Below, in pieces: positions 5,850 through 57,503 of a stretch of 64,000 bases of DNA (position 1 is its first letter; the number at the start of each line of letters is the position of its first letter). This DNA is from Botryllus schlosseri (taxonomy: Eukaryota): positions 15,998,001-16,062,000 of the forward strand of contig CM119372.1 of assembly GCA_051294905.1 (NCBI GenBank), written 5' to 3'. Position numbers and translations under genes: made by a program. Below the pieces are notes generated by a model, which was not told the origin of the DNA, did not search any database, and saw nothing but the letters and a program-made list of their open reading frames with translations.

Positions 5850-8352
5850 GACTATAGTATAAGACTCGAACATTATATTGTCTGTCGACTGAAGGACCGC
5901 CTCTTTACTCTCCGAGTATATTTCAGTAATGTTATTATTAGCATTATTTTCTTTATTCACAGTAAAACTGCTAAATATACGCAATCTCGGTGATATTATT
6001 ATTATCATACTATTTATTTGCAGTAAAACTAGTAAATACACACGTATTCCAGGGACCAACCTGCTTGCTATAGGGGAAATGGCGAGATTGAAGTATACTT
6101 AAATAATTTCAGTATTCAATTCAAATTGCTGCTCATAATACATGCAGAAGTCAGATTACAGAATTGCGGTAGATGAAGATTCGGCAAGGGTTGTAGAGGT
6201 AAAGATGACTTGAAATGTAAGATCGAAATTACAGAAATTATGCTGTGATTTTCGAGTGCAAGTGTAATTAAGTCCAGTGGTGCATCCAAGATCTTCCGAG
6301 GAATATGCTAAGTGTCCAACAAAGTGATCTTCAGGATCATGTCGAATCGAACGCCTCCAGAACTTTTTTTGCATATGAGCCATAAGCTTTTTGCTTATGA
6401 CCCCGAAGCATATCTTTTGTGCTATTCACTATATCATTACAATCCGTCAAGAACGGAATGGACTTCTCTTAACGTCTTCACAGCTCATAGTTCTCGTGAA
6501 ATTACCTAATATAATATCGTCCTAGAAGTTTCTTGGTTAAGTCTCCGAATCAACATCAACACAGCCATCATGATTGTCCAAATGTCCATCCTCGTATGCT
6601 TTTATATCGATATCACTAAGTGTAAATATAGGGAAGAAGCGCAGACACGACAAATTGCTACCAGTGACCAGCAACCAGTGATTTTTCACATTGCTTGAAG
6701 ATTGTAAGTGGTATCTGGTGCTCCAACCTGATACTATTTAGATTTTCGGAATCGATGCGACAATACCTATCGATTCATAATGGCCAATGCAAATTATGAG
6801 CTCACATCGTCATGCAGCAACTTCGAGCAACATGCGACTCTCGTAGAATGAGCATACTCGTAGCAACAAATGCTTGTTTACCCTCGGTCAATGAACTCGA
6901 ATGGCTGATGATATTTGCAGGACTAAAGAAATCGGATATATATGTCCATCATTATTCCAGAGTTGACTCAAGTCACTCCCTTCGAGTCACAAGTCATATT
7001 GAGTCATTATACATTTGGACAGGAGTGAATTCAAGTCACACGATTTTGTGAGAACTCGATTCGAGTAACGAGTCAAGTCACGAGTCATGTCAAGTTGAAT
7101 TTTCGAAGTAATAGAATGAGTCGGCATTTATTCTGGATCGAGGATAAGATATACAGCTAAATACATATGTTGAATAAATGAATCCGCCTATTTTGACGTG
7201 TGTCCTTATTTTTGGTTAGTTCATCCTTATCTCCGGCAACAGGCCTTGAATATTGTGCATTTAATCCATGATTGTATGACATCATGAATGAAACATGTTC
7301 TCGCGGCGTATACGTCACAGGGCAGTATTGTTGTATGTGGAGATGTAGGCTACCTGATGCTGTGTTGTACAATTTCTTTTTTGCGTTTACCTGTTTCAGC
7401 GAGCGCCGCGTGTGAGATGGACAGTTAGCATTCCGGTGGCCAACCAATAGCCACGGATTTTTTTGTGTCCGGCCACAAATATTCCGTGACCGGCCATGAA
7501 AACTGGTATTCAATGGCAGGCCACAGTGAATTTTATGACCAGCAATGAAATTTCACTGCGACTGGCCACGAGACTTCCTTGGCCGGGCACAGAAAACTCG
7601 TTTTTTTGGCCGGCCGTAATATACCAACTTAGTAGTAAATATCAGTACTGTCCGTGACCCAATCGAATCGGGGTCAAATGTATGATCAATTATGTTCTAT
7701 TATGGGTGTACAGTCAATAGAATTAGGTGATAGCGACAGTTTAGCTGAGTTTATAAGAATTTTCACCCGAAATACCAGAAAAATGGCTATAAAATGTAAC
7801 AATAGGAAAAAGTCGAAACAATCAGGCAGAGTCTCTAAGATATCAATTAAAAACACATAAAATGATGTAAAGAATAGATTTAAAAGGGGGATACTCGCTG
7901 AAACAGGAAATAATTGTATAGAAAGCCAGAAGCAATGAAGATAGTATCAAAGCAGGTAACTGGCAAGTATTGATTCGGATAGAAATAGACCCGAATGTTC
8001 GGCTGACGCTCGTCACGGGTAATCGTCAGCAACTGTATAGAATTGGAAAGAACAATGAATACCAAATATATGTCGGAAAGCTGTGAAATTCACATGACAC
8101 TTTGTGGCCGGCAACAGAACAGCTCGGAGCTCGCTGTGGCCGGTGCTTCCCCCGTTCTGATATTGATTTTCTGCTGTAAGATGTGCAATGTGCCTACTGC
8201 ATTGTGCAGTTGCAATCGATTGTATAGTTGGTTATATTTTGTAAATATACACACCTGCGATTAAGTAATATGAGGCTGATTATATCCATCATTTTCAACC
8301 ATTTTTATCGTGTATGATAAGTCTGCGATGCGAGGTTATAAAGATATACTTG

Positions 8353-15397: not shown

Positions 15398-15721
15398 CTT
15401 CGAAAAAATGAACATTTGGGTCAAAACACTTTGGATGATTATCGTTGGAAAACCGATATTAGCGGCTCACGAATTTAGTAATTTATGTTTTATCATACTG
15501 CAGTCCGAATGAACTCGCAAGTCGTAAATCATAAATGTAGAGTGTACACTTACAAACACACACTCAATTCAACTCAGAAAATGATCACGCACAAATTATA
15601 TAGTCATGTTGAAATAAACCAGGCTGGTACTCTTCAGGAGAAACATATGCATAAATAGCATAAGCCTGTTCAACTCAGATTCATTTATTTACCTGGATAT
15701 TTGAAGTAATTATGTACTCAC

Positions 15722-15815: not shown

Positions 15816-18243
15816 TTTAGAACTGGTTGGTTGATTATTGTATACTTCTGGAAGCGAAATCGTACTGTAAACTGTGCATAATTTGGCATGTGTGAATTGT
15901 GGCATAGAAATAATCCACAGCAAATACGCTTGGTTTACCCTTCCGATTTGGAGAGTTGTCTTTCCCATGCACATCAATAGTTCGAGACCGGTTGATATAT
16001 TCGGTGATCAACACCAACACTTGTTAATGGATTTATCTCATATAGCTCCAATTTCCATATCTATAATACCGCTAGTCTTATCACGAGACGCGTACTTTAT
16101 ATCACACCAATACCAATGCTCGTTTCATGGTTTCACCTTCGCCACTCTATCATCCATTCTCAAGCTATCTGTATCATATTTATTATTTTTAGCATAAGAT
16201 ATATAGCGGAAATGTGAGAGTTAGAGCTATTTCGAAATCTTCCACAACGAGTAATGTTCAGCTCACGTGGGAGTGAATTCATATACAGAAGGTTGACTGC
16301 CATAAACATACGCCTACTGTAGTTTATGCCAACAGGAGGTGCTGGTGTATCGTCTAAAAATATTACATGGAGCTTTAGCTATCTGCCCGCGTCAATTAGT
16401 CAAAATGTCATACCTGCAACGTCACATTTGGGGTTACGATTGTTGATATACAATGATCTCCAAATCCTCTACAATATGCTACTAGAATCTAGAAGTACAA
16501 AACTTCAATATTGCAGCAAACACTACACTCATATTGACGAATTTATTCCACTCGAAGCATTTCGACTGACTCTGTAGTCAGTAAATGCAGTTAAGACTAG
16601 TAATAATAAATTTGAGCGTTCGGGTCGCAAGTTATCCAGAACTGCCAAGTATGCTGCTATTAGCAACTCAGCAGTATACCTCTCTGCGTATTCAAGTGTG
16701 GCGACTGAGATGCCCAATTGCGCATCTATCCTTAGGTTAGTAATCTCTCGTTATACCGTACCTATCCTTGTTACCAGCCGTTCTCTACTCTGTGTATTTT
16801 TCGTAATTACGTCACAACGACAAAATTGTTTCTATATTTCGAATTTGTTTAATAGAAAGTAAGTGTCACGCTGATTCCGAAAATATAACTTGAAATATCG
16901 TCTGGGCGAATGAACCAACGCGAAATAGCCGCCGATCAATTGACCATCGATAGTATCTATGGCTGATGGTTAACAGATAAAGCTCTCTCCAACCTCAAAA
17001 TGTTATTTCATGACCGCATTTGTCGTCGTGGCCCGCAGTTCACCAAGACCTGTTCTAAACCATTGACCGAGAACTTGGGTTATTGCGCGATAAAATGCTC
17101 TCCCTCTCTTGTGCACTCGAAAACTATAAATATTAAGAATGAGAACACAGCTTTTGTGCACAAATCTTTTTTCCTTTAGTATCTCTCAAACACGTATACA
17201 GCAACGGATGCTGGTTTGTAATATCATTTACTCAGATCATTTACAATAGGCATTTGACTTTCTTTAGTAGGAAATCTGTATGAATGTGAAAAAGTACCAA
17301 GCACAGTAATGAACCTAAATCCGCAATTTTATTACTTTACCGGCCAATTGTATATCTTAGCTATTTCGCTGAGGTTACAATAATGATGACAAGTGCGATC
17401 ACAGGCTATACTATCAAATGATAAATGAGAGTGTGTTATCGGCACGATTTATTTATTTCAATGTACACGGCTGCAGGAATATCACCGGCGACTTTTCAAA
17501 TTCAGGCACGTGCCCATTATACATATTAAACTGTCTCATTAAATAATTAATCAATGGAGCGTTCACGTGAAGAGGGCGTGTTTGCGAATGCACAATCCCT
17601 CACACCATCATCTAAGATGAATTGAATGCTGAATCTGATGCCATTTGATTGGAACAGCGGTTTTCAACCAGTGAGCCATGGCCCACTGCAAGGATAATCC
17701 CCGAATTATCAAAGAAGAACTCAAATAACTCAGCTTCTACGGGTTGGAATTCAGTCAAATTTGTTTTGCATTGATTTTAAAGACAACGCAACAATTTCAT
17801 GGGGTTGACAGAAAAATTTGATGAAAATTTTCTAACTCTACGAAATCCGCGAATATTGGTTTGAATGAATTCAAATTTGCTGTGCGTCGTTTTTTTAAGG
17901 CGACCTAACGATTTAATCACGTAACCAGCAAGATTCAGGAAAAAAAGTTTTTTTTGAACAGCCCTAATGTATACTATACATTGTATAACCTACACCGTGA
18001 CCAATAACCATAGTTTAAGAGCATCATCGACAGAAGGCCTCAGGAAAGCCAGTTGATTGCTCATAATTTGGAAAAAAAATTACAACGGTGCTCTCATCCG
18101 ATCTGAATCGAGTTCCCATGATGCAAGGCGATCGACGGATGATTTTTTGAGTAGTGAAAGACGACGCTCGTTGCCACTAGGATTGTACTCATTAACCAGA
18201 ATTCTAGTTCCGATACTTTTTTACACTTCGGAAGCTCTAAAAT

Positions 18244-20317: not shown

Positions 20318-21920
20318 CCTCAACAGCCATTGAAGTGGGCTACATTGATGTTGAAGAAATGTTACTTGCTGCAATGTAGCACTAGGCAACACGTCAATGC
20401 ATCAGAGCAGTGCTTTCCAAGTATTTCAACTAGTACCCCCTTGACAACGAATGCAGTACCAACCACCTCCTCGACCGCCCACCCTCCCGCGCGGAAGGAG
20501 GCTGGTGTGCTGCATCTTCAAGATATTGGATTTCAGTTTTGCTATGAGCAATCTCAAAATATCCCCATTCCACTACGTCAAGTCGATCAAGTCAAAAGTT
20601 TGGCACTGAATGTGCACTTTACTGAATATAAGCTGGGAAAGGCAATGACAAAACAGTTACCTCGATTCCTGGAATCGGAAGGGTACTTCCTTTATATTGT
20701 TCCTCTACCAAGAACGAGTGATACGATATATTGAACCTAGACTCGAGCTAAAATTTGTTCTACAATGAAACAATAATTGCATGTTTGGAACTTCGCGGAA
20801 TGGATTGATTCTCCAGTCTGTAACTTCTTATTGAAATATGTCATAAAATCGATTTACCAAATGTGCTTGTGCACTTCGTCAATTCGAGACGATGGTAACA
20901 TGGTTTTACGCCAACATAAGATGTGCAAAGAGTACCCCGTACCGGTATCTAACTCATTCAGGCGTGAGCCCAATTGATAGCCAGCGCCCACCAATCGCTA
21001 TTTCATGTCGAGTGTCCGTTCACAGCCACCAAAGTCCCCAGGAGGATCTAGCACGCAGGCTGAGAATCACTGCGTTAGAGAGTTTTTGTTAATAGTTTAT
21101 AACGGTATTCGATCACCCAGTATTATATTTTGCCAAATCCAGTGTTCGCGAATAACGGTATCGACAGAATAGAGCTCCGACAATTATCAAGAATAGACGT
21201 TACCGAGAATGTACAATACCGAGAATGGACATTACCGATAAAATATTAAAAACATTCAACGGTATTTAAAACGATAAAATTCAGATTACTCGCGATAACG
21301 CGACGCATGGTCAGTGGGGTGGTCCAGAATTTGGAAAATCTCAAAAATGAGCCGTATCCACGTCTCATTCTGAAGAGCTTCTTAGAGGTACAGAACTTCA
21401 GTATGCAATTGAATAGTATTTTCATATTGAAATGAACCCGAAAATTTTCGGCTGACATTCGATATTTGCGCCAACGCGTTTTGCGGCGGTAAGCTACCAC
21501 CCCCATCATTCACCCGTACCGTTTTCGTTGAACTTTTACATGCCTCAACCTGTTCCGTTTAATTTAGCTTAACGATGTTATTTATAAACAAATCGATAGC
21601 GTGGCTATGGGCTCGCCTCTGGGACCTATTTTAAATGACATTTTCGTAGGATATTTTGAGGGAGAGCTTCTCTTCCAGTGTGAGTCCGTCAAACCATTCT
21701 TGTACCGCCGATATGTAAACGATACTTTTGTCATATTCAAGAATGAGTTGTAATGTGATCAATTTCTCGTTCGCTTTAACTCGCTTCACCCGGCCCTGCG
21801 ACTCACAATTGAAAAGAATGCAATAACACTCTGTCATTTTTAGGACGTTCTAAATATAGTCGAAAAAAATGATACCAATAAATTTGAAACATTATCTTCA
21901 GGAAACCGACATTCACAGGC

Positions 21921-22325
21921 TAGACATACATACAGAGAGATAGAAAAATTCTTTATTAGTACAATGTGATTTGACACAAATATGCAAATAAGACAAATGC
22001 AGCGATACGACCGCAACAAAATGCGTAGTCCTCAGGTCAGCTGTAGTCAAGGCGTAGTGATAGTATTATATAATGTAACTGTCAGTCAGTAACACTCAAA
22101 TAAAAGTATAAATGACAAAACGCAATACAGTAAAATAAAAAAAAAGCAAATATGTAGAAATGAGCTGAGACTTGAAATTCCGATGGAATGACACAAATGA
22201 CAAACCTCTATGCTTTAGTGATAAAGAGTTCCGAATCCTTGCGACCTGCAAAAGTTATGGGTCTCTGGCACACATTAGCGGCTAAATTTTGTGCAAAGAT
22301 ATTTCCAGGTGTGGCTGCTCCAGTT
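21921..22325 (-). mobile_element. LINE 3' end (CR1/L2-like) inserted in the Penelope-like RT
   Basis: Interrupts the RT right after RKPTFTG. Minus strand has a VARIRNSL-like C-terminus, AATAAA and a simple-repeat tail. Confidence 0.5.
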
Positions 22326-23214
22326 CATTCTTTGTAATTCATTTAGTCCTAGACGCAGAAAATCAACCTCATAAGCGCCCGCGCGCATATAGCGTTGATG
22401 GTATGTTCGGGTAACAAACTGACTTTAAAACTTGACAACATCCGTAAAATCGTACTTGATTACGGTTACCCCGAACACGTCATTAACCGCGGCATAGAGA
22501 GGAAATTAGGCAATTAAAGGCGGAAAAGTCAACAGAACCTACCGAACGTGCAACGAAATATCTTTACATTCATCTACTTTGGATTGGTCCTATTGCCACC
22601 CGCTTTGAAAAGCAATTGATTTTTGCGGTCAGTAAGTGTTACGACACAGTGAAGACTAGCGGGATTTTCACGACAACGCAACTGCTCCCTATACATCACG
22701 CATAAGACGTGCTTCTTGCACTTCAACAAAGTAATTCTGTGTACGAAAATCAGTGTCACTATGATTGTGGCTATGCGTGGGAAGAACGTCAAAGCGCTTG
22801 CAGGAACGGAGAAATCAGCATGTCCCTAGATTTATTAAAACACGAGCATCACGCTCGGTGAAAAGCTCACCCTTGACACATCCCCTCAATGCTGATGCGT
22901 TGCAATCAAAGGCCATAAATTCTGCCATAGGCAAGCATCTGTTGGATAATCACGTTCGTCCGAAAAAAATATCGAGACGACCGATTTCGCGTCGTCGGGA
23001 GTGGCCGATCACACTTTTATTTGAGCGCCTTGCAGTCGACTTCTATCAAAATACACCAGCCAAGGCTGTGTCTACAAAAAGAGTTCGTGTACCATCTAAA
23101 AATGGTGCATTGAACACTCTCTTATTCGAAATTTCATGCTGGTGACGTCATATTTTGTGATACGACTGTTGACATACAATGTTCTATCCAATTTTCTACT
23201 AGTTGTTGACGATT

Positions 23215-23248
23215 GCCCCTGACGAGTGTCCGCCAAAAATGTTCGGGT
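23215..23248 (+). ncRNA. Degenerate minimal hammerhead ribozyme
   Basis: GCCC-CTGACGA-GTGTCCGCC-AAAA-ATGT-TC-GGGT. The GAAA core reads AAAA. Confidence 0.55.
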
Positions 23249-23710
23249 TTATTTCAATATGAATATATATATTATTCAAAGTCCCATTCCATAGATTACT
23301 GATAATAAAAACGCCAATCAGCCTGCAATAAGCTCACAGGGAAGTCGTTAAGATTTGGCTAAAAGCATTTGAAAGCATTTGAAAGCATTTGGAAGTGGAC
23401 GTGCCACTGACCATAGAACTGCGAGAAGACTAGTAGTCGCGAAATCACGGCGCTTGATTGGCTATTCGGCTATGCCTCAATGATCACGAAGGTTGCGGCT
23501 TGCTGATCAAAAACGTGTAAAACATGACTGGCTTATTGTGAAAAGAGAGGGAGAGAGTCTTTATTTTTCATCCAACCAAAATACATTTAAAAAAACAGAC
23601 GGCAATGATGGCTGAACAAAAAATATGCACGCTCAGAATTCGATATCAGTTAGTAACGATTGGTATGACAGTGAAAGTAAATTAGTCTGATCAGACACGC
23701 ATCAAACAGG

Positions 23711-29432: not shown

Positions 29433-30738
29433 TTTGTGGAACTGCGCTCAAGAGGCTTTTCAGTGATTCAGGGTCGAAAGAAACGCTTAGCCACTTCTGA
29501 GCCGCGGAGGTAATCAATGACAGAAGATCAATATCATCGCTTGAACGACAAGTTTTAGCTGTGAGGTTCACAATTTCGCATATGAATGCGAAGAATAGTA
29601 ACGGATGTGTAGAAGACATGATAGATAGAATTGACGAGTCGTGGTCTGATTCGGACGGGGTACTGGCGGCCTCGGTGGCCTCGTTTACATGAGAAGAGGT
29701 CTCCAATAAGGATAAGTTCGCATCATTGGGAAGGGGTGGTCGCGGTGGACTGATTTTCGCCGAAGTTGACTTAGCAGAGGCATTCTGACGTTGGTGTACA
29801 GCCTGCCGTCGGTGTACAGCCTGACTATAAGTTTTACCGCTGGGAGTTGGCGACAATTGTGTATGTGAAGATCTTTCTGGTGCTTTCGCTTTAGCATCGA
29901 CGTGCGATACTTTTGCTTTAGCATCGACATACGATAGACTCTCTCGTTCTCGAATTATTTGTATTTTGGCTTCCCTCTTATACACTGGGCACCCACCGTA
30001 AGCTGCGCTATGGGGCATTTTGCAGTTGACACACCTCTTTTCCTGATCGCACTGATGATGCTCATGTTCATGACTCCCACATTTGGAGCACGTTTTTCTT
30101 CCACCGCAATTTGCCTTCGTGTGACCGAATCGATTGCATCGGTGGCACCTCAATGGGGGAGGATTATAGGGATTGGTCTTGAATCGAAGATATCCAATAT
30201 ACAACTTATCTAGAGGTGTTGGAACATCAAACCCTAGCAGCATTGACAAACTATCAACATAGCCATCAGTGGACTTGCGTTTTAGACGTTTAGCAAAGCA
30301 CACGTGTGATTCGCTGAGGAATTCAACAACTTCGTATTCTGACATGTCAGCTGGCACGCCTCGGATAACGGCCCTAGACGCATGCTGATGCAGTTTACTC
30401 ACATCGTAACATCCCGTATTAACCGGAATTGACACTACTCCGTCTGTAAACATATCTAGAGATAGGAGCTTATCGGCCTGCATGCGATTGTGGCAGGTGA
30501 CGAGTAAGTCTCCCGACGGGAAGACACGGATCCCTTCATAATTACCAATCACTGCGTGTAAGCACTTGTTCACTGTGATAGGATGATAGTGTTTCATCTT
30601 CCTATCTGCATCAGACTTATTATTCATTGTTTTCCATGGCGGACTATCACAATCAGACTCGCTTTGTGAACCCCTTTTACTGCGTTTTGATGTGACAACA
30701 GTAAACTCCATGTCATCGTTACCAACATCCGCTGCCAT
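29425..30738 (-). CDS. LINE ORF1 gag-like nucleic-acid-binding protein
   Basis: 437-aa ORF with three knuckles (CHRCNRFGHTKANC, CSKCGSHEHEHHQC, CVNCKMPHSAAYGGC). Overlaps the ORF2 start by 8 nt. Confidence 0.9.
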   Translation of the reverse strand: MAADVGNDDMEFTVVTSKRSKRGSQSESDCDSPPWKTMNNKSDADRKMKHYHPITVNKCLHAVIGNYEGIRVFPSGDLLVTCHNRMQADKLLSLDMFTDGVVSIPVNTGCYDVSKLHQHASRAVIRGVPADMSEYEVVEFLSESHVCFAKRLKRKSTDGYVDSLSMLLGFDVPTPLDKLYIGYLRFKTNPYNPPPLRCHRCNRFGHTKANCGGRKTCSKCGSHEHEHHQCDQEKRCVNCKMPHSAAYGGCPVYKREAKIQIIRERESLSYVDAKAKVSHVDAKAKAPERSSHTQLSPTPSGKTYSQAVHRRQAVHQRQNASAKSTSAKISPPRPPLPNDANLSLLETSSHVNEATEAASTPSESDHDSSILSIMSSTHPLLFFAFICEIVNLTAKTCRSSDDIDLLSLITSAAQKWLSVSFDPESLKSLLSAVPQNV

Positions 30739-31909
30739 CAGGCGGGATGGTGGCTTATACAGCTAATAACTTCTCACTGCACGTAATCCTATCCGAGTAC
30801 CGCTAGAGTATTACCACAAGTAAGCCTTTACACCAGAAAACCAAAACCTCGCAACAAGCTCTCGACGCTGATTGCAGGATGAGCTGCTCAATCTAGACAC
30901 GTCCGCACACATCGGCGGTCAGACGCGAATGGGTTCGTATGACTTGACTTGACTCGAGTCCCTTTGCTAAAATGACTTGACTTGACTTGACTCGGCGTAT
31001 CAGAAATGTGGAATGACTCGTGACTCGGAGCATAATTCACGAGTCAATTTCAAGTCATCAAGTAATCGACATCGATAAAATCACTGTATCTTGCAGATGT
31101 TCGGATTGGTCGCGAAACGCTGGTGTAACCCGTGAGTGCGACCAATCAGCGACCATCGTGCGTTTTACTGGGCCGCTATTGTTCTCTCACATATAGATTG
31201 ACAACAAACGAAGTGATCGAAGCTTACAGCGTACGTTGTCGTAAACTAGTATGGTAAAGTAATTTAATAGTGAAATGTCTATTTCTGTTCTCTGTTCTTA
31301 CCAAAACCAAACCAATTGTTTTATTGAAATTGAATTCGAATATAGTTTATATAGTCTTCAGCCATTGGCGGAAGCTCGAATTGTATCATATCAATTTGTA
31401 AATGGGTAATGTATTGCGTCTTATCAAGTCGTTTCTCTATTTTGGCTGGTAACTATGAACTTAGGCTATGCAATTACTCACGTAGTTTAGCAGTTCTACG
31501 TATATGTGAACGATACAGCGCCTTCTTACGTGTATATTTAACTTTATATTCGTTCACCGATTCAAAATCAATGACCACTCAATCTGTATTTCAGACAGCT
31601 AGCGAAATGCGTCATACCTCATACTTTGAAAAAGCAACTTGACTTGAATTGTGACTTGACTCGAGACTTGACTTGACTCGATTTGACTCGAGTCACCTCC
31701 AAAAATCGAGTGACTTGACTCAAGTCACCTTCGAAAATCGATTGACTTGACTTGACTCGAGTCAAAATGTGCTATGACTCGAAATGACTCGTGACTCGAA
31801 GGTAGTGACTTGATCCCAACATTGCCTGGCTGATAATGCTTAGTTAAATGGAATTTCTTACTACACCGCGCATATAGGGCTGGGCATAATGATTCGAGTT
31901 ACTCGAATC

Positions 31910-32834
31910 CAGTGTTGGGATCAAGTCACTACCTTCGAGTCACGAGTCATTTCGAGTCATTGCCCATTTTGACTCGAGTCAAGTCAAGTCAATCGATTTT
32001 CAAAGGTGACTCGAGTCAAGTCAAGTCACTCGATTTTGGGAGGTGACTCGAGTCAAGTCGAGTCAAGTCAAGTCACGAGTCAAGTCACAATTCAAGTCAA
32101 GTTGCCTTTTCGAAGTATAGGGCACGATAACGTCAATGCATTTTGGTAGCTGTCTGAAATACAGATTGAGTGGTGATTGATTTCGAGCCGATGAACGAAT
32201 ATGGATATAAATATACAGGCAAGAAGGCGCTGTATCGCTCGCATATACGTAGAACAGCTAAACCATAGTTTATAGTTACCAGGCAAAATAGAGAATAGAT
32301 ACGAATTGATAGGACGCAATACATGACCCAGTTACAAACTGATATGATACAATTCGAGCCTGCGCCAATGGTTGAGGACTATATAAACTATATTAGAGTT
32401 CAATTTTAATAAAACAAGAGGTTTGGTTAAGGTAAAAACAGAGATTAATTACTTTACTATACTAGTTTAATACAACGTAAGCAGTATGCTTCGATCACTT
32501 CGTTTGCGGTCAATTTATTTGTGAGGGAAAAATGGAGGCTCCGTAAAACGCACGATCATTAAATGATTGGTAGCTCACACGGTTACACCGGTGTTTCGCG
32601 AACAATCCGAGCATATGCAAGATTTAGAGATTTTTGTCGACACCGATTACTTGATGACTTGAAATTGACTCGTGAATTTTGCTCCGAGTCACGAGTCAAT
32701 CCATATTTCTGATACGCCGAGTCAAGTCAAGTCAAGTCATTTTAGCAAAGTGACTCGAGTCAAGTCAAGTCATTCGATAAAGGTGACTCGAGTCTGACTC
32801 GAGTCAAGTCATGACTCGAGTCATACCAACACTG
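31910..32834 (-). mobile_element. Complete GACTT-family hAT MITE
   Basis: TIR CAGTGTTGG...CCAACACTG and perfect TSD CTCGAATC. Confidence 0.9.
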
Positions 32835-45060: not shown

Positions 45061-47309
45061 GTTACAATCAAGACCGTAACTATCACATCCAAAACCTCCC
45101 GGAGGGGCCAAGTTGAGCCTCAAAATTATTTCCTGAATCAACTAAAACGAAAACGTATGTTGGGACAGATTAATGCTACATTAAATTTTTCTTCGCACTT
45201 CATGCGATTCAGTTGCTATAGATCTGTTGATTTTGATACGGATACCACTCTCTCGCAAAAAATAACGTCAAAAAATAAATATCAAAGACCTAATATACTG
45301 TAATAAGTCCAGTTGCATCACTGTTTGGATGCTTCAGTCAAAGGCTATGGTTTTAAACTTAGGATGTTCGCTTGCCATTTCTTCTGGGGATCGCCCAGAT
45401 GCTGAACGTAATCACCTTCCAAAATAGGCAGTGGGCGAAGGCGAAGGCGCTGAGTATTGTTTTGCAATCAGCTTGGTGGGCAACGCAACATTTCCGAACA
45501 GGTAAACGACTCGCGACCATTGAAAGGTCAGGAATCACTGGTCTAATGGTGAACAACCAGCGGGTGCGGAGCGGCAGTTCGACTTATAGATAGTTTTCAG
45601 GGTATGGTACGGTACGGTTTGGAAGTACGGTATACGTTATGGAAAGAAATGATGATATGGAACATGGAAATGTGCAATTATGGTATGATATGGAAATTTC
45701 CACGTATGGTATGAAAATGTTTTTACATGCTCCCATACTTTGGCAGTATTTCCAAAACCATTACAATGATCTTACTTTTTTGTTAAACCGATAGCATACC
45801 TCAGAAAATCGGTCCGCTTAATGATAAAATTGTTAGGTTGTCTAAAAAAACGCTACACACCAAATTTCAGTCAATTCCGACCAGTAAAGGCCGTGCAATC
45901 TTGAATTGAAATTTCGACCATTTTTTAATTTGTGGTATTTACGGTGGCAAATTTCCACACTTCGGTATGACCAAACATCTTGTTCCAGGCATGTCTGAAG
46001 TGATAACGATGCTTTTTTTTCAGGCGCAGAGCTCTCTACCAATATCTCAGTTGATTTACTATAGTCACAGAAAGCATCAAGAGAAAACCCAATACAATTT
46101 ACGTCCCCGTATTGCCGGTCGCAGAGGTGAATTTGGAATGTGTACACCGCGCTCGAACCACGAACGAGCGTATCATCACAAGTCATGATTATGAGTTGAG
46201 TGCGTATCTTGATCTACAGCGATTCCTCTCAACGTAACTCCTAGTGTTCCACGGAACACCGATCAAGAACCTCTGCTTCATGAGCAATGTCGTTGCAATA
46301 TCGTAATATTTTAATGTGCAACTTTTGGTAACCGATGAAAATGTATAGAATTCTTTGAAGTCAGCATCATCTAAGAAGCTTCCTCTGAATATCTCAGATG
46401 CTCAGATTGCTCACAAATGCCACGCCAGTGTTGGTTTCTTGATTTACAATTAGAAATTTTCATGCGCAAGCTATTTCGCGAGCAAACAGTGATGAAACAG
46501 AAACCACACGCGCTGTTTGCGATGCGAATATATGATATCTGACGAGCTGCAGAGAAGATCCGGCGTACAGACGTATCGTTTGTGACTCTACGATGCCATC
46601 TTAGGGTCGGACGAGAAGAAATCGGAGGATTTTTATTTTCCGAGAAAATAAGTGTGGAAATATCGACCCAAACCCAAATAGAAAGTTGAAATGGTGGTGT
46701 GATCCGATAAAACAGCATCGCCAGCTCACAAAACCTCAAGGTTGGGGTCGAGTCTTGTAAGATAGGCTATTTGATTTTCTATTTGGAACATTGATGAGAA
46801 CTTTTTGAATAGGAGACCATTTCACAGTTCACGGGTACGGGCAAATTTCTCCAATGATAAATATTTTTATAAATCGGTGGTTGAATTCTTTTCCAAATGC
46901 CCAATCTCCGTCATCAGTCACGCATGCCCTAATATAGATAATACAGAGTGTCAATATAGGAATGAGACGCAGTTGGAAGTCCGTCTAACTAATTTAGCAT
47001 TACCACTGTGCAATAACACATGCATCACACTCGGAGATAATGTTGCCTTTGACTCCTCCCCGAAAGCTTTAATCGGAACAAGCAAAGGTGATGAATTCTT
47101 CTATTGGTAAATATGAGTTGAATAATTCTATTTGTGCAAAAATTATCGAGACGACAAATGTCGCATCGTCGGGAGATAACATTACCACTCTCGTTTGAGT
47201 GCCTTGGAGTTGGTTTTTATCAAAATACGCCAACCTAGTTTGTGCCAAAATAAGGATTTCGTTTACCATCTAAAAATAATACATTGAGTTAAAGCGATAA
47301 CTTCACCTC

Positions 47310-47460
47310 GAATGTTCGAACTTTCATGCTGGTGACGTCAAATGTGATGATACAATTGCTGATATACGATGTTCTTTCCAATTCTCTGCTATGCTGACTA
47401 TTACCCCTGACGAGTGTCTGCCGAAAATATTCGGGTTCATTTCAATGCGGATATATAATT
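47310..47460 (+). repeat. Solo Penelope-like terminal repeat fragment
   Basis: Collinear with ~23125-23270. Confidence 0.75.
47403..47436 (+). ncRNA. Minimal type I hammerhead ribozyme
   Basis: ACCC-CTGACGA-GTGTCTGCC-GAAA-ATAT-TC-GGGT: complete core, 4-bp stem I, palindromic AATATT stem III. Confidence 0.7.
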
Positions 47461-49485
47461 CAACTGTTATTTTGGTGGATTAGCTCGGTGACCTCTCAAT
47501 CGGTGCATGCATATGTTCGCCACTATTCATTTCTCGCAACTAGATACTTGTCATTGTCACTATATACTTACATGCAGAATTCTTGTCATAATTCCAACGA
47601 AGTTTTATACCATATGAGATTTAACATTCATTTCATTCATTACAATTATAATACCGTCGTGTCACCGGAAAGAATTGTTGGCGCGTGATGAAAAATTATA
47701 TGGTCGTCGTCTTTTCCCGTTGAGCTTGGGCTTGCAGCTGTTCATGGCTAAAATTGAGAGGGGGAACGGAAGGTTGGTGCATTCCCTTTATAAAGGCCGT
47801 CTAACTTACTTCCTGGTGTCTATTGAGAATTTGGACGCTAGCTGAATGGCTGACTTATCACTAGGGCAAGTTTTCATTGCAGTCAAATCCGTGAAAGTTG
47901 TAGTTATTTTTCACAAAAATGGCAGTAAAAATTTGCATTTATTTTTCACAAAAGTTGCACCAAGAAGTTGCATTATTGGACAAGTTCCTTGAAATTATTA
48001 GGGTATGACATACTGGAATAGATCCGTATGGAAGGCACTGTCGCAAAACTCAGTGTTTGCGACTTCAACAAAATTAATAGCTTGAAAAAATTTTCGGCAG
48101 TCTGAATGTACGTTATATCAGAAACGACCTCAAATTTATACGACAGTGAATCAAGCGATCTATTTACGTATACTGCCAAATATTTCCAGTAAAAAGTTAG
48201 TTGCATGACAAATCGGAAAAGATGCTATAATTTGCATGAAAATCAAAAAAGTTGCCAAAAATTGCAATATCAGATTACTCCAAACAGCTGAAAACACCAT
48301 ACTACATAAGTTCTGAGTATTTAGGAAAGTGTAAGAAATTGTAAAAAAAAGTTGCAAAAGTTGCAAAACTTGTCCTACTTGTCACATAAGGAGAATTACA
48401 TCGCTCATTAGCTAGTATCGCAGCTCAAACGAACGATAGGATCGTAAGAAAGATGTGTCCACAATTCCAGAAGAATTATACGTTACTCATGGTCAGCACG
48501 TTCGCCCGAACATACTCACGGCGTGTGTTGGAAGCTGTCGACTAGAGCAACGTATACAGGTCTTTTGGGCCGATTTCTATCTATATCCAACCGAATCGTG
48601 ATATCATCTCGCAGACTTCTATAATTTTTGATCCGTATATAGCCGAAGATGAAATATATTTTAAAGTAAATTATATCAGAAGGTAATTACAGACCGTGGC
48701 GCACCAGACCCTTACGGGAGATTAGCGCCACTACTACTTTTTACCATACTAATAATCAAGAAATGCTACGTGAATTCTACGTCACGCGAGATACCCGTAA
48801 CGAACTATACGTTATTCGGTTGAGACATAGCACTACCAGTCGCTTGTAGTATTCATTTTTATACTCCCGGCACTTTAATCTTCATAGTGATGGCAATACA
48901 CCAACCTCACGTTATAGGTGACGGTTTTAAATGACGCTTTACCTGATTTTGATACATTGTTCGCCGGGTTTCCCATTCCACTGTGGTCGTTTTTTCTTCC
49001 ATTTTGAAACATGAACTGAGGTGTTCAGAAACGAGCCACCGATAGCATCCGTTTAATTCGCATTTTTGTAATAGTTATTGGTATTTAATCTTCGTCTCCG
49101 CGGCCCCAAAGAATAGTCAAATGCCCCCTAGTTTGGAAACCCCGGGATTGCAGAATTGGGGTGGATCAAAAATTGGAAACGGTTGCAGAGGTAGAGTAGA
49201 GATGATTGAAAAATCTTAATCGAAATTACAAAAACTGGGCTGTGATTTTCGTCAACAAATGTAAATTTGTCCGGTGGTGCATTTGAAGTATTTGGAAGAA
49301 AATGCTTATAGTGCCCGATAAAATGATCTTCTGGATGATGTCAAATCGAATTTTCCGTAACCTTTTGGATATGTCTCATTAGTATTTTGCTTATGATTCC
49401 CGTAACCGTAGGGTCAATGACTCTCGGTAAAATGTTTATTTTGCATCGTCACATTTTCTCACATTCTATATTGAGATATGCGCAT

Positions 49486-51929
49486 TAGGGTTGTTCAGAA
49501 TTGACCGACTTTCAAAAAGTCCAGGTTTTCAGTCCGATTCCCATGCCTTATACCTTAAAAACATATTCTGGCTACTTTTTTTGTAACTCGTCCCCTGCAT
49601 CCGTGTGCACATTGAGCTGGAAGAATAGCAGCTGAAAATAGGGGATTCCCCTAAAATCTGAGTGTCACGATTATACCTAGCCTAGTTAAAGTGACATATA
49701 GCATGGATTTATGCAGCTGTTGCGGTTTGGAGTGCTACAAAACCCCATTATATAAGGCATTGCTAGTTCAGGATATCATTTCCATGTCCCACACTGCCTT
49801 AGAACTGCTCAAAACGACCTAAAACTGATAGTCATTTTGTTGGTTCACAAATCCTACACCCCTCAAACCTACCCGGCACTGTTCATCAATTTCCTGGATC
49901 CCCATGTGCAAGAATACAACTGTAAATGTAACATCCACTCACAGCCACATTATTAACATCACAGGAAACAAAAAAATAAGGCAAAGAAAGAGATCAACTT
50001 TGCAAAATATTACATAAATCAGGTGGATGAAATGGTTGCTTTCGAGAAATCTGCATATCTGTTCCGGTGATCTTCCACAGCTTGTAGGAGACTCGCTCAC
50101 TGTTTTTTGTCATCCGTTATGAACGCAGCATAGTCGGTATTCAATTTTACCATACGCTCTGCTGCATCATTGATTACTTCAACAGTATTCACAAATTCTT
50201 GAGCAGTCACGAAATCCGGATCAGTATGCCATTCCGAAACTGGAAGACTCAATTAATCATGTTCCACATGTATAGCATCAAATAGAAACCACGATTCTGG
50301 ACCAATCAAATCGACCATACTCATTGACTCAGAGACAGAGTCAGAGATCAGACTGAGAGGCATACCTCTGCGAAATTTTTCAGGGATTGGCATTTTCAGC
50401 AATTTAGCAGCCATCGCTTCCTTCAGTTTGTCAGGAATCTTTGGATTAGCCGAGAACATGGTAAATACCACCATTTCCTCAGTTGGATACCAATGATGTT
50501 TTCGCAATTTCTTGTATGCCACATCAGCAACAGTGAGATCGCATAATGAAAAGTTTTTCATGTCATGAAGGAATTTCAGATCATTCCAAGGTGCGTCACA
50601 AGCAATACCAGTTTTCAACCAAGCTGGAACATAAAACAAAGCAATGAATGTATTGATTCGTTCCAACTTTTCAATGAACTCTTCAGAATAGTCCATTTGC
50701 TCACTCCACATGAACATTTTTTGACAGTATAGGACTTGACGACTCATCCATCTAGCGCTATGAGTAGCACCAGGCTTGCGAAAACGATGATCAACATTTG
50801 TCATCCAAAATCGCCAAGGTGCCTGTTGCACATTCTCTGTAGTCATCTGTTATCAAGACTTCTTTCTGCTTTCCATCATTGGGTTTCATCAGTGGAATTA
50901 TTTCTTGCTCTGCTTCATCAGCTTTCATCGCCAACCAGCTGCCTTCAATAAACTTCAGCGTTTTATAGCTTCTTGATTTATCAATATGTTTCCACTTCTT
51001 CTTGAAGGTATTAAAATCCTGTTTTCATGGCCTGTGGTTGTCGATCCAAACAAACACTTCCAAACCTCTCGAATGACCAGTTCAGAAATATGATGGCGAC
51101 AGGCATTGTAGAAAACTTTCGTGTTAATCAATTCTTCAAGTAACGGAACCGCACCTTTGTTTTTACCAGTGTTTGAGGATGTTGTGTCAGACACAAGAGC
51201 TCTACCAGATTTTGTTAAATTCCAAAGTTCTAGCAGTTCAAATGATGCATCAGCCTGTGCTTTTCCTGTAGCACTTTCCGACTATGCTGCGTTCATAACG
51301 GATGACAAAAACAGCGAGCGAGCCTCCTACAAGCTGTGGAAGAATACCGGAACAGATATGCAGATTTCTCGAAAGCAACCATTTCATCAACCTGATTTAT
51401 GTAATATTTTACCAAGTTGATCTCTTTCTTTGCCTTATTTTTTCGTTTCCTGTGATGTTTATTATGTGGCTGTGAGTGGATGTTACATTTACAGTTGTAT
51501 TCTTGCACATGGGGATCCAGGAAATTGATGAACAGTGCCGGGTAGGTTTGAGGGATGTAGGATATGTGATCCAACAAAATCACTATCAGTTTTAGGTAGT
51601 TTTGAGCAGTTCTAAGGCAGTGTGGGACATGGAAATGATATCCTGAACTAGCAATGCCTTATATAGTGGGGTTTTGTAGCACTCCAAACCGCAACAGCTG
51701 CATAAATCCATTTTATATGTCACTTTAACTAGGCTAGGTAAAATCGTGACTCTCAGATTTTAGGGGAGTCCCCTATTTTCAGCTGCTATTCTTCCAGCTC
51801 AATGTGCACACGGGTGCAGGGGACGAGTTACAAAAAAAAGTAGCCAGAATATATTTTTAAGGTATAAGACATGGAAATCGGACTGAAAACCTGGACTTTT
51901 TGAAAGTCGGTCAATTCTGAACAACCCTA
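49486..51929 (-). mobile_element. hAT-like (probably hATm-type) transposon derivative with 652-bp inverted repeats
   Basis: 49486-50137 is inverted at 51278-51929. Perfect flanking ATGCGCAT on both sides. Confidence 0.9.
50025..51277 (-). pseudogene. 5'-truncated, frameshifted DDE transposase
   Basis: SDTTSSNTG, ACRHH, PGATHSARWM and VINDAAERMVKL motifs in order. Confidence 0.8.
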
Positions 51930-52715
51930 ATGCGCATGGTATCGATAACTCAGAGATTTTGCTTTGCGCTATTTGTCTTCTTATGCAATGACTTTGCAGT
52001 AGGTATTATCGCCGTTGTAGATGCATTTTGGGAAGCCGATGATTTCTGTTTTAAAAGTCCGCTCAATTTCTTGTAGTCCGTACCATTATAAACGATTAAC
52101 TATTTCGCGGAGAATGCCGTAAATGTCACTCGCATCCAGTGGCCAATTTCCTTGGCATAGCCATCATTAAAATGACTTGACTTCTTACCTGGAGCTGCAT
52201 CAATACTGCTTTTGCTTCTGAGAAATTGATCGGTAACTTCATGTTAAAAATTTCCTAAGAATCTATTTATTTCGGTGGAAGTAAAAGGTATCAACAGGGA
52301 ATTAATGGTTATTTTTGTCGGTGTCGATACCAATAATGTGCCAAGTGGCATATAGTAAACGGTTTCGCTTGTTTGATCACTATTTTGCAAGCCTTTCAAT
52401 TGCTTATCTATATGCAAGCCGTATAATCATTTTGTTGGTAAGTAAATATTGTTAGTGGAATTAACATCGAATGCTATGTGCAAGTCTTATTATAAAATAA
52501 AAGCGACGGGTCAAACTGACCGCACAAATCACTAGTCTAACCCTTGCCATGCACCTGATCTTGCGGACAGGTTTATAGTGCCAACTGACTTCACAAATAA
52601 ATAAATGCCGTTTGTAATGAAATTTGGTAGTGATTTATCATATGATTCAATTGCACCCAAACATGGTCAGCAACAACTATTTATACTTTTTCGTGCTAAT
52701 CGACATGGTTTAGTC

Positions 52716-55129: not shown

Positions 55130-57503
55130 TAGCGATGGTGTGAACCTATGAAAGGTTCAGGCTCGTCTGAACGCCAACCTTTTTGAAAGGTTCTGTGTGA
55201 ACGTGAACGTGAACCTCATGACGTCACGTGACATCATATTGCTAATTCCAGCCCCACATTTCAGTGAAGTAATATATTAATGTACACGATACCTAGCGAC
55301 GACTCGGGCCGCATAATGCCACAATATTGAAGTACATACCAGTGTTGGGATGACTCGAGTCATGACTTGACTCGAGTCAGACTCGAGTCAACTTTTTCGA
55401 ATGACTTGACTTGACTCGAGTCAATTTGCAAAAATGACTTGACTTGACTTGACTCGGCGCTTCAAAAATGTGGATTGACTCGTGACTCGGAGAAAAATTT
55501 ACGAGTCAATTTCAAGTCATCAAGTAAACGGTGTCGACTAAATCAATGTATTCTGTGCATGTTCGGATTATTCACGATACGCCATTGTAACTTGTGAGAG
55601 CAACCAGTCATTCACTGATTGTACGTTTCGCTGATCCTACATTGTTACATCACATATACACTGACCGCATACGAAGTGATCACAGCTTACCTTGTCGTAG
55701 TAGCAGATTAATTTAATAGCAACGTATCGCTGTTTATTGGACTGTTCTGTCCTTACATTGGACGGCGCTCACCTTTACCAACCCTCTTGTATGATTTAAA
55801 TCTAACAAATATATTTTATGTATTTATATCCTCACCGATCTGTATAGATGGCTAGTGTATTGTACGATATCAATTTCTTTCATCTTCTCGAGGCTTCGTA
55901 TTCGATCCTCTATTTTTGCTGATAATAAAAGAATGTATAGCATGTCGCTCAGAGTTGTCAAACTCAACTGACGTCGCGGGTCGAATTCAAATATACAGAT
56001 CACTCGCGGGCCGCACCAGTCAAATGATTCCAAAATATTACTAACTCTTAACTCAATATATGCACTTTTTCGCATTCTCGAAATTGGGTGTTAATGTCAG
56101 CGATTTTCTCCTTACGATAACTACAATCACAACTCCGCTGTCGGGTTGTTATAAAGTGGCCTATGAACATACTCGAAATTTGCTATCTTGAAGGAATATT
56201 TATTAGTAGTATTTCTTACTGCAAATTCGAGAAATGTGTTGAATAAAATCACGCAATTTTCACCATATACTCAGAATTTCTTCGCGCGCCGAATGAAATC
56301 ATTTGGCGGGTCGTATGTTTGACACCCCTGATGTAGCTGTACAGTTACTTACGTATTTTATTAGCAGTTCTACGTGTGCGTGAGCGATACAACGCATTTT
56401 TGCATGTATATTTAATTTTATATTCGTTATTTGATTCAAGATAAATGACCAATTGATCTCTTTAACATAGCCAGTAAAATATAATGAATTTGAATGATCA
56501 CTCATACTTCGAAAATTCAATTTGACTTGAATTGTGACTTGACTCGTGACTTGACTTGATTTGACTTGACTTGACTCGAGTCACCTCCAAAAAACGAGTG
56601 ACTTGACTTGACTCGAGTCACCTTTGAAAATCGATTGACTTGACTTGACTCGAGTCAAAATGTGCAATGACTCGAGATGACTCGTGACTCGAAGGTAGTG
56701 ACTTGATCCCAACACTGGTACATACTGACTTTTTAAACGTCGCCAAATGTATCAACTGGGGTAATCAAATGATATAATATTCCAATAAAATCAATATCTT
56801 CTGTCGCTTTGCCAACAATTTCGACGAGGACCTGCTAGGGAATATAACATTTCGCCTTAATGGTCTAGGCCAGACCGGACAATATATTCGGCGTCTGAGT
56901 GTTCCTACGTTGATATTGTGCAGAGTGTAAAACGGTTTCTATACTTGCTACCGATATTACCCCATTAACAAGCTATACAGCAGTAGCCAACACCCCAATC
57001 GCATGGATTTGGATTTTATGATGCAATAAACTTCCGAAATCAAGATGGACCCCGCACGCTTGCTGGATTTTTTACATAAGACAACGACAGCAATTTCATT
57101 GATTGGTTGAATGAGCATCATTCGCCGACTAGCGGATTTCGCTTTTGATGTTGTGTGATTGCGAGTCAAGCTCACAGTAGAGAGTCACTAAATATTCGCA
57201 AACGGAAAGCTTGATATTTCGAGCAAACTTTTGTAACAAAGCAAGTAAAATATTTGAGATTGTCAAGGTGCATGATCGTTTAGTGTTGATTTTTTTATGC
57301 TGCCAGTGCCATGTATAGAGTGGCCCGCAGTTAAAAAAAAAACGCAAAAAATTTCAACCAATTAGTTATAATGACCGGAAAATTGTAATATAAGAAAAAG
57401 GCTCACAATGCAGAACCTACCAAGGTTCGTTTGTGAACGCGAACCTTTAAATTTCTGAAGTTCACGCACAGAACGCGAACGTCAATCTCACTTTCACACC
57501 ATC
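55130..57503 (-). mobile_element. GTTCAC-family MITE split by a GACTT MITE
   Basis: Reverse complement of 53336-54283 once 55340-56725 is removed. Confidence 0.85.
55340..56717 (+). mobile_element. GACTT-family hAT MITE with an internal insertion ending ~56330
   Basis: CAGTGTTGGGAT...ATCCCAACACTG and perfect TSD GTACATAC. Confidence 0.9.

What the first reader, a model, noticed from the sequence alone, without database searches (positions are those of the whole stretch)
47403..47436. Core-intact minimal hammerhead ribozyme in a solo Penelope-like repeat
Seen: ACCC/GGGT stem I, CUGACGA, a vestigial stem II closed by G-C, GAAA, palindromic AAUAUU and a UUC cleavage triplet. It sits in ~150 bp homologous to the 3' repeat of the Penelope-like element at 21.5-23.3 kb. 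Established: Penelope-like elements carry minimal type I hammerheads with palindromic stem III that can act as dimers. Inference: this orphan copy could self-cleave after C47432.
Basis: partly seen in the sequence, partly recalled or inferred. Interest (0 to 1): 0.7.

Follow-up and report, generated by a model that had tools for sequence, protein, structure and literature searches.

The report
Decaying knotted hammerhead in Penelope relic
This is a real but probably inactive copy of the small self-cutting RNA that Penelope-type jumping genes are known to carry; the one less usual point is that this family replaces the ribozyme's second stem with a base-paired knot, which this copy has partly lost.

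Summary
The motif is real. All 13 core bases, a 4-bp stem I, the AAUAUU palindrome and C47432 are as stated. It is the window's only descriptor hit (1 of 300 shuffles, tight settings).

Two corrections:
(1) It is not a 150-bp solo repeat. It lies 119 nt after the stop codon of a ~450-bp, 5'-truncated, broken Penelope-like copy of a very abundant family.
(2) Stem II is not vestigial. In the family majority its 7-nt loop pairs with 7 nt upstream of stem I, a pseudoknot. A distant relative keeps it with a compensatory change while the flanks no longer align. This resembles the RAGATH-1/pseudoknot hammerhead minus helix IV. None of 56 published representative metazoan minimal hammerheads shows it.

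This copy breaks two of those seven pairs, has no intact dimer partner in the window, and three partly read RNA runs show no reads on its unique flanks and no pile-up of ends. Verdict: a probably dead relic of a known association, in a modestly new structural variant. The scan noted a knotted stem II before in this genome (e1-7786987). Lünse 2017 was unreadable and may pre-empt novelty.

The parts
47015..47466 (+). 5'-truncated, decayed Penelope-like element copy (endonuclease tail + 3' UTR + hammerhead + short tail)
   Evidence: blastn to 22839-23269, 72% over 447 columns, and to 21461-21406. Family contigs and reads cover about 47070-47476 and stop at the unique flanks. No convincing target-site duplication.
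47016..47287 (+). Broken C-terminal coding tail of the RT/GIY-YIG ORF (residues 285-374 of intact relative P0002), with a frameshift near 47135-47138, in-frame stops, and terminal TGA at 47285-47287
   Evidence: tblastn E 8e-19, 46% and 64% identity; stop position
47393..47399 (+). 5' strand of the pseudoknot (GCUGACU here; family majority has G at 47399)
   Evidence: G in 203,404 of 209,846 summed contig depth and in 579/691, 672/747 and 44/47 RNA reads; pair counts
47403..47406 (+). Stem I 5' strand (ACCC)
47407..47413 (+). Core C3-A9 (CUGACGA), intact
47414..47422 (+). One-base-pair stem II (G47414-C47422) with a 7-nt loop 47415-47421, the 3' strand of the pseudoknot. U47419 here; family majority A.
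   Evidence: A in 1,490,108 of 1,546,785 summed contig depth and in 943/1057, 1041/1104 and 70/71 RNA reads
47423..47431 (+). GAAA core (G12-A15.1) and palindromic helix III AAUAUU (47426-47431), stable only as a dimer
   Evidence: isolated self-duplex only -0.2 kcal/mol
47432..47432 (+). C17; the predicted cut is 3' of it
   Evidence: descriptor; core consensus in PMC3088659
47433..47436 (+). Stem I 3' strand (GGGU)
21455..23269 (+). Longer broken copy of the same family (RT to endonuclease, about 400 bp of non-matching DNA at 21920-22320). Its hammerhead has G12>A at 23235 and a pseudoknot mismatch at 23231.
21375..21461 (-). Inverted, truncated 3'-end piece abutting the 5' end of that element; starts inside the hammerhead core
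   Evidence: blastn 21406-21461; extension to about 21375 judged by eye against the loose-end consensus; RT homology starts at 21455
7965..8060 (-). Short family copy with a perfect 7-bp pseudoknot (terminal G-C) but C3>G and 2 nt lost from the GAAA/helix III stretch
16302..16484 (+). Family copy that ends just before the hammerhead
15597..15640 (-). Probable family remnant: CUGAAGA and loop present, GAAA to cut site missing
   Evidence: (weak, E 0.96)

Best explanation
The motif is the 3'-terminal hammerhead of a Penelope-like retroelement family, left in an old 5'-truncated insertion. SHOWN: context, family abundance, family-majority letters, pairing potential. INFERRED for the active element: the core folds as a type I hammerhead. 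G10.1-C11.1 is the only stem II pair. The 7-nt loop pairs over 6-7 bp with the strand 7-14 nt upstream of the core, forming a helix that takes the place of helix II and, through a 2-3-nt linker, ties it to stem I. Helix III forms only when two copies pair through their palindromes (tandem pLTRs or two transcripts), perhaps with help from the element's protein, and the cut falls after C17. INFERRED for this copy: it decays neutrally, has kept the 13 core bases by luck and by how it was picked, has lost two pseudoknot pairs, and most likely does not cleave in the cell.
For: Context: 119 nt after the stop of an RT/GIY-YIG ORF tail. The best 120 listed relatives of P0002 carry RVT_1 in many cases and PF01541 in 6. 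An inverted truncated piece at the 5' end of the longer copy is the standard PLE layout (PMC8557442 passages). Abundance: 13,441 contigs of one DNA run lay on the stretch; summed depth is 1.25 million in the hammerhead bin vs 11-16 in unique flanks (not a copy number). Pseudoknot: the majority letters at 47399 and 47419 restore 7 complementary pairs, against a mapping bias that favours this copy's own letters. L001/L002 (51-53% protein identity) keep the same register with G-C>U-A at the outer pair. L002 shares 33/44 positions in the motif vs 15/45 and 9/30 beside it, and its 3' UTR does not align. Random 25-mers pair as well with the loop in 0.16% (L002) and 0.025% (8 kb copy) of 20,000 draws. 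Rfam RF03152 has the same 1-bp stem II and 7-nt loop. 9 of 31 viral-contig hits to a pattern that fixed only core and loop length show 5-6 pairs in a row in the same register (about 3 sequence families). Decay: at least 33 of 304 positions differ from the family majority, the ORF is broken, the pseudoknot duplex is -4.7 vs -8.1 to -10.5 kcal/mol in intact ones, and the MFE is a hairpin over 47421-47434. At 10-13% neutral divergence, 16-25% of copies keep all 13 core bases.
Against: Pseudoknot covariation rests on 5 sequences in 2 lineages: one two-sided change in the pseudoknot helix, 8-12 of 500 shuffles reach the scores, and relatedness is not controlled. No cleavage or probing was done. This copy differs from the majority at only 2 of 44 motif positions vs 31 of 260 around it, a direction that could hint at constraint, though p = 0.19 and 139 rows of the table were hidden. 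Only 6-13% of each RNA run was read, the tool's filters can drop reads, and the runs are of other samples, so silence is not proven. The genome was not held, so no genome-wide copy alignment was made.
Confidence: 0.8

Rival explanations
1. One reading: this orphan copy is a working ribozyme in the cell (active or co-opted), cutting a host transcript after C47432 alone or by pairing in trans with another family transcript.
For: All 13 core bases, stem I and the palindrome are intact. Family sequences are abundant in RNA (1,498, 1,731 and 145 reads laid), so trans partners exist. 5 of 7 pseudoknot pairs remain.
Against: Zero RNA depth on unique flanks in 3 of 3 runs; reads 99%+ alike 3/1498, 0/1731, 0/145; no pile-up of starts or ends. 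Two pseudoknot pairs lost. In a tested 1-bp-stem-II hammerhead, shortening the pseudoknot from 6 to 4 bp cut the rate about 20-fold (PMC3088659 passages). A monomeric PLE minimal hammerhead did not cleave and dimers cleaved weakly (PMC4209133). The Anolis Poseidon hammerhead cleaved only with protein (PMC11167929 passages). Slow in vitro cleavage of an engineered dimer at high Mg2+ is still possible (my estimate about 0.35) but would not show function.
Confidence: 0.07
2. The hammerhead is real but stem II is simply vestigial; the loop/5'-flank complementarity is inherited coincidence or a competing inactive fold, not a tertiary clamp.
For: Few independent sequences and only one two-sided change. 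Nested folding programs pair these strands at the expense of the hammerhead fold in the 8 kb copy, so the pairing could act as an off-switch. A review describes PLE hammerheads as lacking helix III or the loop-loop contacts (PMC7761336 passage).
Against: The pairing is kept in exact register in a lineage whose flanks no longer align. The geometry (1 bp + 7-nt loop + 6-7-bp helix) matches RF03152 and the 8YDC crystal structure and recurs in viral hammerheads. Slid controls fall to 25-40% paired vs 91%.
Confidence: 0.1
3. It is a solo pLTR or non-autonomous retrozyme unit rather than a truncated autonomous element.
For: Single hammerhead, no RT at the locus; a 2026 preprint derives animal retrozymes from PLE pLTRs (10.64898/2026.07.22.740005, first fifth read). 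pLTRs are themselves truncated copies, so the line is thin.
Against: It carries about 270 nt of endonuclease-coding tail collinear with the autonomous ORF, is not in tandem, and lacks the 4-bp helix II of canonical type I retrozyme hammerheads.
Confidence: 0.03
4. Chance resemblance to a hammerhead.
For: No Rfam hammerhead hit; a loose descriptor hits 14% of shuffled windows.
Against: Sits where PLE hammerheads are expected; conserved with an intact core in the distant element L002; tight descriptor 1 of 300 shuffles.
Confidence: 0.01

Closest known systems
Minimal hammerheads (min-HHR) of metazoan Penelope-like elements (Cervera & De la Peña 2014, PMC4209133; read main text parts 1-2 of 4 and supplement parts 1-2 of 3)
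   Same: Type I, short stem I, G10.1-C11.1, palindromic minimal helix III needing a dimer, position in the 3' repeat after the RT-EN ORF, mostly single copies in truncated elements, very high copy number.
   Different: All 56 representatives in their Fig. S3 have a hairpin helix II of 3 bp or more, and the consensus has an extra base between A9 and G10.1. This family has a 1-bp stem II, no extra base, and a loop II / 5'-flank pseudoknot. Their descriptor required a helix II, so it would have missed this form.
RAGATH-1 / pseudoknot-containing (PK) hammerhead (Rfam RF03152; Zhan et al. 2024, PMC11300833, PDB 8YDC; read parts 1-2 of 6)
   Same: Type I, stem II reduced to G10.1-C11.1, 7-nt loop forming a 6-bp pseudoknot helix that replaces helix II.
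   Different: There the partner strand is the loop of a hairpin (helix IV) followed by an A-rich triplex linker, and helix III is long, so it works as a monomer. Here the partner strand is 2-3 nt from stem I (no room for helix IV) and helix III is a 6-nt palindrome. The RF03152 model does not hit this motif.
Pseudoknotted hammerheads of Perreault et al. 2011 (PMC3088659; passages and a supplement text search)
   Same: [quoted passage not shown]
   Different: The tested 1-bp example is type II from a metagenome; not tied to Penelope elements in the passages read; my five short motifs were not found in their 11 text supplements.
Short-stem-III hammerheads of Penelope-like retrotransposons (Lünse, Weinberg & Breaker 2017, PMC5785218; not held, seen only as a reference-list title and through a review's summary)
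   Same: PLE-linked, diminished stem III, cleave as dimers (title; PMC6765202 passage).
   Different: Unknown. I could not check whether their alignments include the 1-bp stem II + pseudoknot form.
Poseidon element of Anolis carolinensis (Frangieh et al. 2024, PMC11167929; passages)
   Same: C-terminal GIY-YIG PLE with a hammerhead; no RNA-seq ends at the cut site, as here.
   Different: Active element; its hammerhead overlaps the start codon and cleaves only with protein. The copy here is truncated and broken.

Membership tests
Hammerhead ribozyme, type I | Core C3 U4 G5 A6 N7 G8 A9 / G12 A13 A14 A15.1 / U16.1 H17 | tested here: met
   consensus from PMC3088659
Hammerhead ribozyme, type I | Open-ended stem I closing the junction | tested here: met
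   4 bp here; A-U/U-A change and a fifth pair in L001/L002
Hammerhead ribozyme, type I | Site-specific Mg-dependent self-cleavage | not testable with these tools
   No pile-up of RNA ends in 3 runs, but standard libraries need not show one
PLE min-HHR (Cervera 2014) | Located in the terminal repeat downstream of a PLE RT/GIY-YIG ORF | tested here: met
PLE min-HHR (Cervera 2014) | Palindromic minimal helix III | tested here: met
   AAUAUU; AAGCUU in L001/L002
PLE min-HHR (Cervera 2014) | G10.1-C11.1 pair | tested here: met
   5 of 5 sequences
PLE min-HHR (Cervera 2014) | Hairpin helix II (3 bp or more in all 56 listed) with an extra base after A9 | tested here: not met
   1 bp and no extra base vs Fig. 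S3: works like a min-HHR but is a variant
RAGATH-1 / PK hammerhead (RF03152) | 1-bp stem II with a 7-nt loop | tested here: met
RAGATH-1 / PK hammerhead (RF03152) | Loop II pairs with an upstream strand (about 6 bp) | tested here: met
   As pairing potential: 7 pairs in the family majority, the 8 kb copy and L002; 5 of 7 in this copy. Not probed experimentally.
RAGATH-1 / PK hammerhead (RF03152) | Helix IV hairpin and A-rich triplex linker | tested here: not met
   Only 2-3 nt between the pseudoknot strand and stem I vs PMC11300833
RAGATH-1 / PK hammerhead (RF03152) | Long helix III; score above the Rfam threshold | tested here: not met
   No hit at E <= 10
Endonuclease-bearing Penelope-like element | Single ORF with RT and C-terminal GIY-YIG endonuclease | tested here: met
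   Via intact relative P0002 (RVT_1 E 1.2e-5, below cut-off) and its relatives with PF00078 and PF01541; window copies are broken
Endonuclease-bearing Penelope-like element | 5' truncation and adjacent inverted truncated copy | tested here: met
   47 kb copy truncated; inverted piece at 21375-21461
Penelope/Poseidon clade | Phylogenetic placement; no Zn-finger linker before the endonuclease | tested here: inconclusive
   No such linker seen by eye in P0002 (criterion from PMC8557442); no tree with named references was built
Non-LTR retrozyme | Tandem non-coding units, each with a type I hammerhead | tested here: not met
   Single unit with a coding tail

The most novel reading that the evidence does not exclude
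A subclade of animal Penelope-like elements (this genome's very abundant family plus L001/L002) carries an undescribed hybrid hammerhead: the 1-bp stem II and loop II pseudoknot of phage-type PK hammerheads, without helix IV, joined to the dimer-only palindromic helix III of PLEs. With its stem I/II clamp built in, a dimer of intact copies would cleave fast without protein, unlike the sluggish PLE hammerheads tested so far, and helix-II-based descriptors and Rfam would have missed whole PLE families as 'hammerhead-less'.
Probability: 0.35. Interest if true: 0.55.

Novelty: new variant of a known kind. Interest (0 to 1): 0.3.

Why it matters
The locus itself matters little: it is one of very many decayed copies. 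The family architecture matters modestly. What PLE hammerheads do is open: they are slow in vitro, one needs protein, and cleavage was dispensable for insertion in vitro (PMC4209133; PMC11167929). A PLE hammerhead with a simple Watson-Crick clamp gives a clean break-and-rescue test of whether these motifs are selected as catalysts. It also shows a blind spot: Rfam and helix-II descriptors miss this form, which bears on claims that some PLE families lack hammerheads.

Tried and rejected
- Whole-genome analysis: no genome held; L001/L002 not held as records.
- Rfam: no hammerhead hit over the window, over 47360-47470, or in L002 (15 of 61 loci were given).
- Sequence-only core pattern: not above chance.
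- Nested folding: z-scores -1.7 to +1.3, never the hammerhead fold; uninformative for a pseudoknotted dimer.
- Family-specific patterns: 0 hits in metagenome contigs, viral contigs and genome contigs. The PLE protein profile found nothing in viral contigs (0 of 56 candidates).
- Pfam on 7 window PLE fragments: 0 of 7 hits.
- Distant PLE contigs: of 13 loci examined (L034-L046; the other 15 of the 28 returned were short RT-motif matches, E 1e-7 or weaker, and were not examined), 6 show ordinary hairpin-helix-II minimal hammerheads and none shows the knot. The knot is therefore not clade-wide.
- Target-site duplication: only a 7-mer inside the element and 40 nt beyond its end, rejected.
- Sigma-70 promoter scan: not relevant to a eukaryote.
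- Run search: no RNA holder listed.
- P0004: a repeat-protein artefact, discarded.
- Literature: searches and supplement searches found no description of a 1-bp stem II + pseudoknot hammerhead in a PLE. Lünse 2017 is not held, Weinberg 2015 was not consulted, figures cannot be seen, and bioRxiv supplements are closed; any of these may bear on novelty.
- The organism was not identified.

Full report
OBSERVATION. A type I descriptor run over both strands finds this hit and no other. Shuffled windows give a hit in 1, 2, 19 or 41 of 300 as the limits are loosened (the tight limits were set after seeing the motif). A sequence-only pattern is not above chance, and Rfam's models miss it.

CONTEXT. 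It is not a 150-bp solo repeat. Similarity to the element at 21.5-23.3 kb covers 47015-47457 at 72%. An intact relative from public assemblies, P0002 (374 aa; 84% identical to the window fragment in the best segment via P0001), maps by tblastn onto 21580-23110 and onto 47016-47284 (residues 285-374, with a frameshift and stops). The stop is at 47285-47287 and C3 lies 119 nt downstream. P0002 has 1,982 relatives; among the best 120 listed, many carry RVT_1 and 6 carry the GIY-YIG accession PF01541 (the family name of that accession is recalled). The longer copy has an inverted truncated 3' piece against its 5' end, the standard Penelope layout (PMC8557442 passages). The locus is therefore a 5'-truncated Penelope-like insertion. 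Other copies in the window all have damaged cores: G12>A at 23235; C3>G plus a 2-nt loss at about 8.0 kb; truncations at 15.6, 16.4 and 21.4 kb. No genome was held. In one DNA run 13,441 contigs lay on the stretch at 80% likeness, with summed depth 1.25 million in the hammerhead bin against 11-16 in unique flanks. That is not a copy number, but it shows a very abundant family.

STEM II IS A PSEUDOKNOT. The loop closed by G10.1-C11.1 is complementary to 47393-47399. This copy makes 5 of 7 pairs. The family majority differs at exactly the two broken pairs: G at 47399 (203,404 of 209,846 summed depth) and A at 47419 (1,490,108 of 1,546,785), with the same majorities in three RNA runs. Mapping favours this copy's own letters, so the result runs against the bias. 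The 8 kb copy has 7 of 7 Watson-Crick pairs. Two metagenome contigs with a related element (L001, L002; 51-53% protein identity) have the same layout 3' of their ORF (194 nt after the stop in L002): 7-nt strand, 2-nt spacer, 5-bp stem I, core, 1-bp stem II, 7-nt loop, GAAA and an AAGCUU palindrome, with G-C changed to U-A at the outer pseudoknot pair. L001 has U at position 3 and a mismatch at the inner pair. L002 matches this copy at 33 of 44 motif positions but 15 of 45 upstream and 9 of 30 downstream, and its 3' UTR does not align. Random window 25-mers pair as well with the loop in 0.16% (L002) and 0.025% (8 kb copy) of 20,000 draws, against 17% and 40% for the two damaged copies. Limits: 5 sequences, 2 lineages, one two-sided change in this helix; 8-12 of 500 shuffles reach the scores and relatedness is uncontrolled. 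More distant Penelope-like contigs show ordinary hairpin helix II motifs (6 of 13 loci examined; none knotted), so the knot is confined to a subclade.

HOW IT WORKS. Inferred by analogy with the PK hammerhead crystal structure, where G10.1-C11.1 and a 6-bp pseudoknot helix replace helix II (PMC11300833), and with a tested 1-bp-stem-II ribozyme whose rate fell about 20-fold when the knot was cut from 6 to 4 bp (PMC3088659 passages). The upstream strand stacks on G10.1-C11.1 as helix II, and its 2-3-nt link to stem I holds stems I and II side by side. Helix III is only a 6-nt palindrome, so two copies must pair, as for other PLE hammerheads (PMC4209133). G12 and G8 then cut after C17. The likely role in the active element is processing of tandem or read-through transcripts; this is the published proposal, and it is unproven, since cleavage was dispensable for in vitro insertion of an Anolis element (PMC11167929 passages).

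THIS COPY. It differs from the family majority at 33 or more of 304 positions (139 table rows were hidden). Its pseudoknot duplex is -4.7 kcal/mol against -8.1 to -10.5 for intact ones, its palindrome self-duplex is -0.2, and the monomer hammerhead fold is +0.6 against -6.8 for a fold with a hairpin over 47421-47434 that hides GAAA and the cut site. In three RNA runs (6%, 13% and 6% read) depth on both unique flanks is zero; every or nearly every laid read runs on into unlike sequence; reads 99%+ alike number 3 of 1,498, 0 of 1,731 and 0 of 145; both directions are similar; and no place shows a pile-up of ends. This is weak negative evidence: partial reading, other samples, read filters. Against my reading, the motif is less changed than its flanks in this copy (2/44 vs 31/260, p = 0.19; 6/44 vs 101/383 against the 23 kb copy, p = 0.07). 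This is expected if subfamilies kept the motif while active and if the copy was picked for its intact core. At 10-13% neutral divergence, 16-25% of copies keep the 13 core bases and 4-9% keep all 23 core and stem bases.

COMPARISON WITH THE KNOWN. It works like a PLE minimal hammerhead and meets location, core, palindrome and G10.1-C11.1. It fails the hairpin helix II: all 56 representatives in Fig. S3 of PMC4209133 have 3 bp or more. It shares the 1-bp stem II, 7-nt loop and pseudoknot with RAGATH-1/RF03152 but lacks helix IV and the long helix III, so it is not a member. The helix-IV-less knot also occurs in viral contigs: 9 of 31 hits to a pattern fixing only core and loop length pair 5-6 bases in a row in the same register, in about three sequence families. 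Each half is known; I did not find the combination in a Penelope element in eight paper searches or two supplement searches. Lünse et al. 2017, the most likely place for it, is not held, and figures and bioRxiv supplements cannot be seen. I had noted the knot before reading it; I could not see its sequence, and it is not independent support.

VERDICT. Observation real, context misdescribed, activity of this copy unlikely in the cell (about 0.07). The association is textbook and the scan has met it in several other genomes. The pseudoknotted stem II is a modest, testable structural variant at family level. Novelty: new variant of a known kind. Interest 0.3.

Noticed in passing
window 16544-16587 (-): Weak model hit (E 0.095): two 7-nt complementary strands followed by C-GAAA and a UUC, but no CUGANGA between them. 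Either a deleted hammerhead of another knotted family or a chance hairpin. It lies 60 nt from the end of the 16302-16484 copy on the opposite strand.
   Followed up: partly
window 21920-22320 (+): About 400 bp without match to the Penelope ORF interrupts the longer element; origin not examined.
   Followed up: no
window 25737-30762 (-): Near-complete but frameshifted LINE: ORF without Pfam hit, AP endonuclease, RT, RNase H, zf-RVT.
   Followed up: no
window 49478-51937: Long inverted repeat, arms of 532 nt at 96% plus 105 nt at 97%, around a 1.2-kb spacer holding a 198-aa frame without Pfam hit; probably a young DNA transposon.
   Followed up: no
window 30934-32834, 55340-56718, 1889-2158: Family of inverted-repeat elements rich in GACTTGACTCGAGTC-type units; MITE-like.
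   Followed up: no
window 19877-20314 (+): Weak hAT dimerisation-domain match (E 0.0055).
   Followed up: no
L034-L046: Penelope-like RT contigs sit inside prokaryotic MAGs; six carry ordinary minimal hammerheads, four of them with a UUGANAA core. Probably eukaryotic contamination of those MAGs.
   Followed up: partly
L003, L008, L011, L018, L019, L032, L022, L030, L031: Viral-contig hammerhead cores with a 1-bp stem II and a loop II / 5'-flank pseudoknot only 2 nt from stem I. Of the six of these given to Rfam, only L011 matched, weakly, to RF03152.
   Followed up: partly
window 47446-47467 and 21375-21405: Family reads and contigs break off or continue with a shared extension at about 47463-47467; the inverted piece carries the extension and the 47 kb copy does not. 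This fits the 30-40-bp one-sided 'tail' of Penelope insertions.
   Followed up: partly
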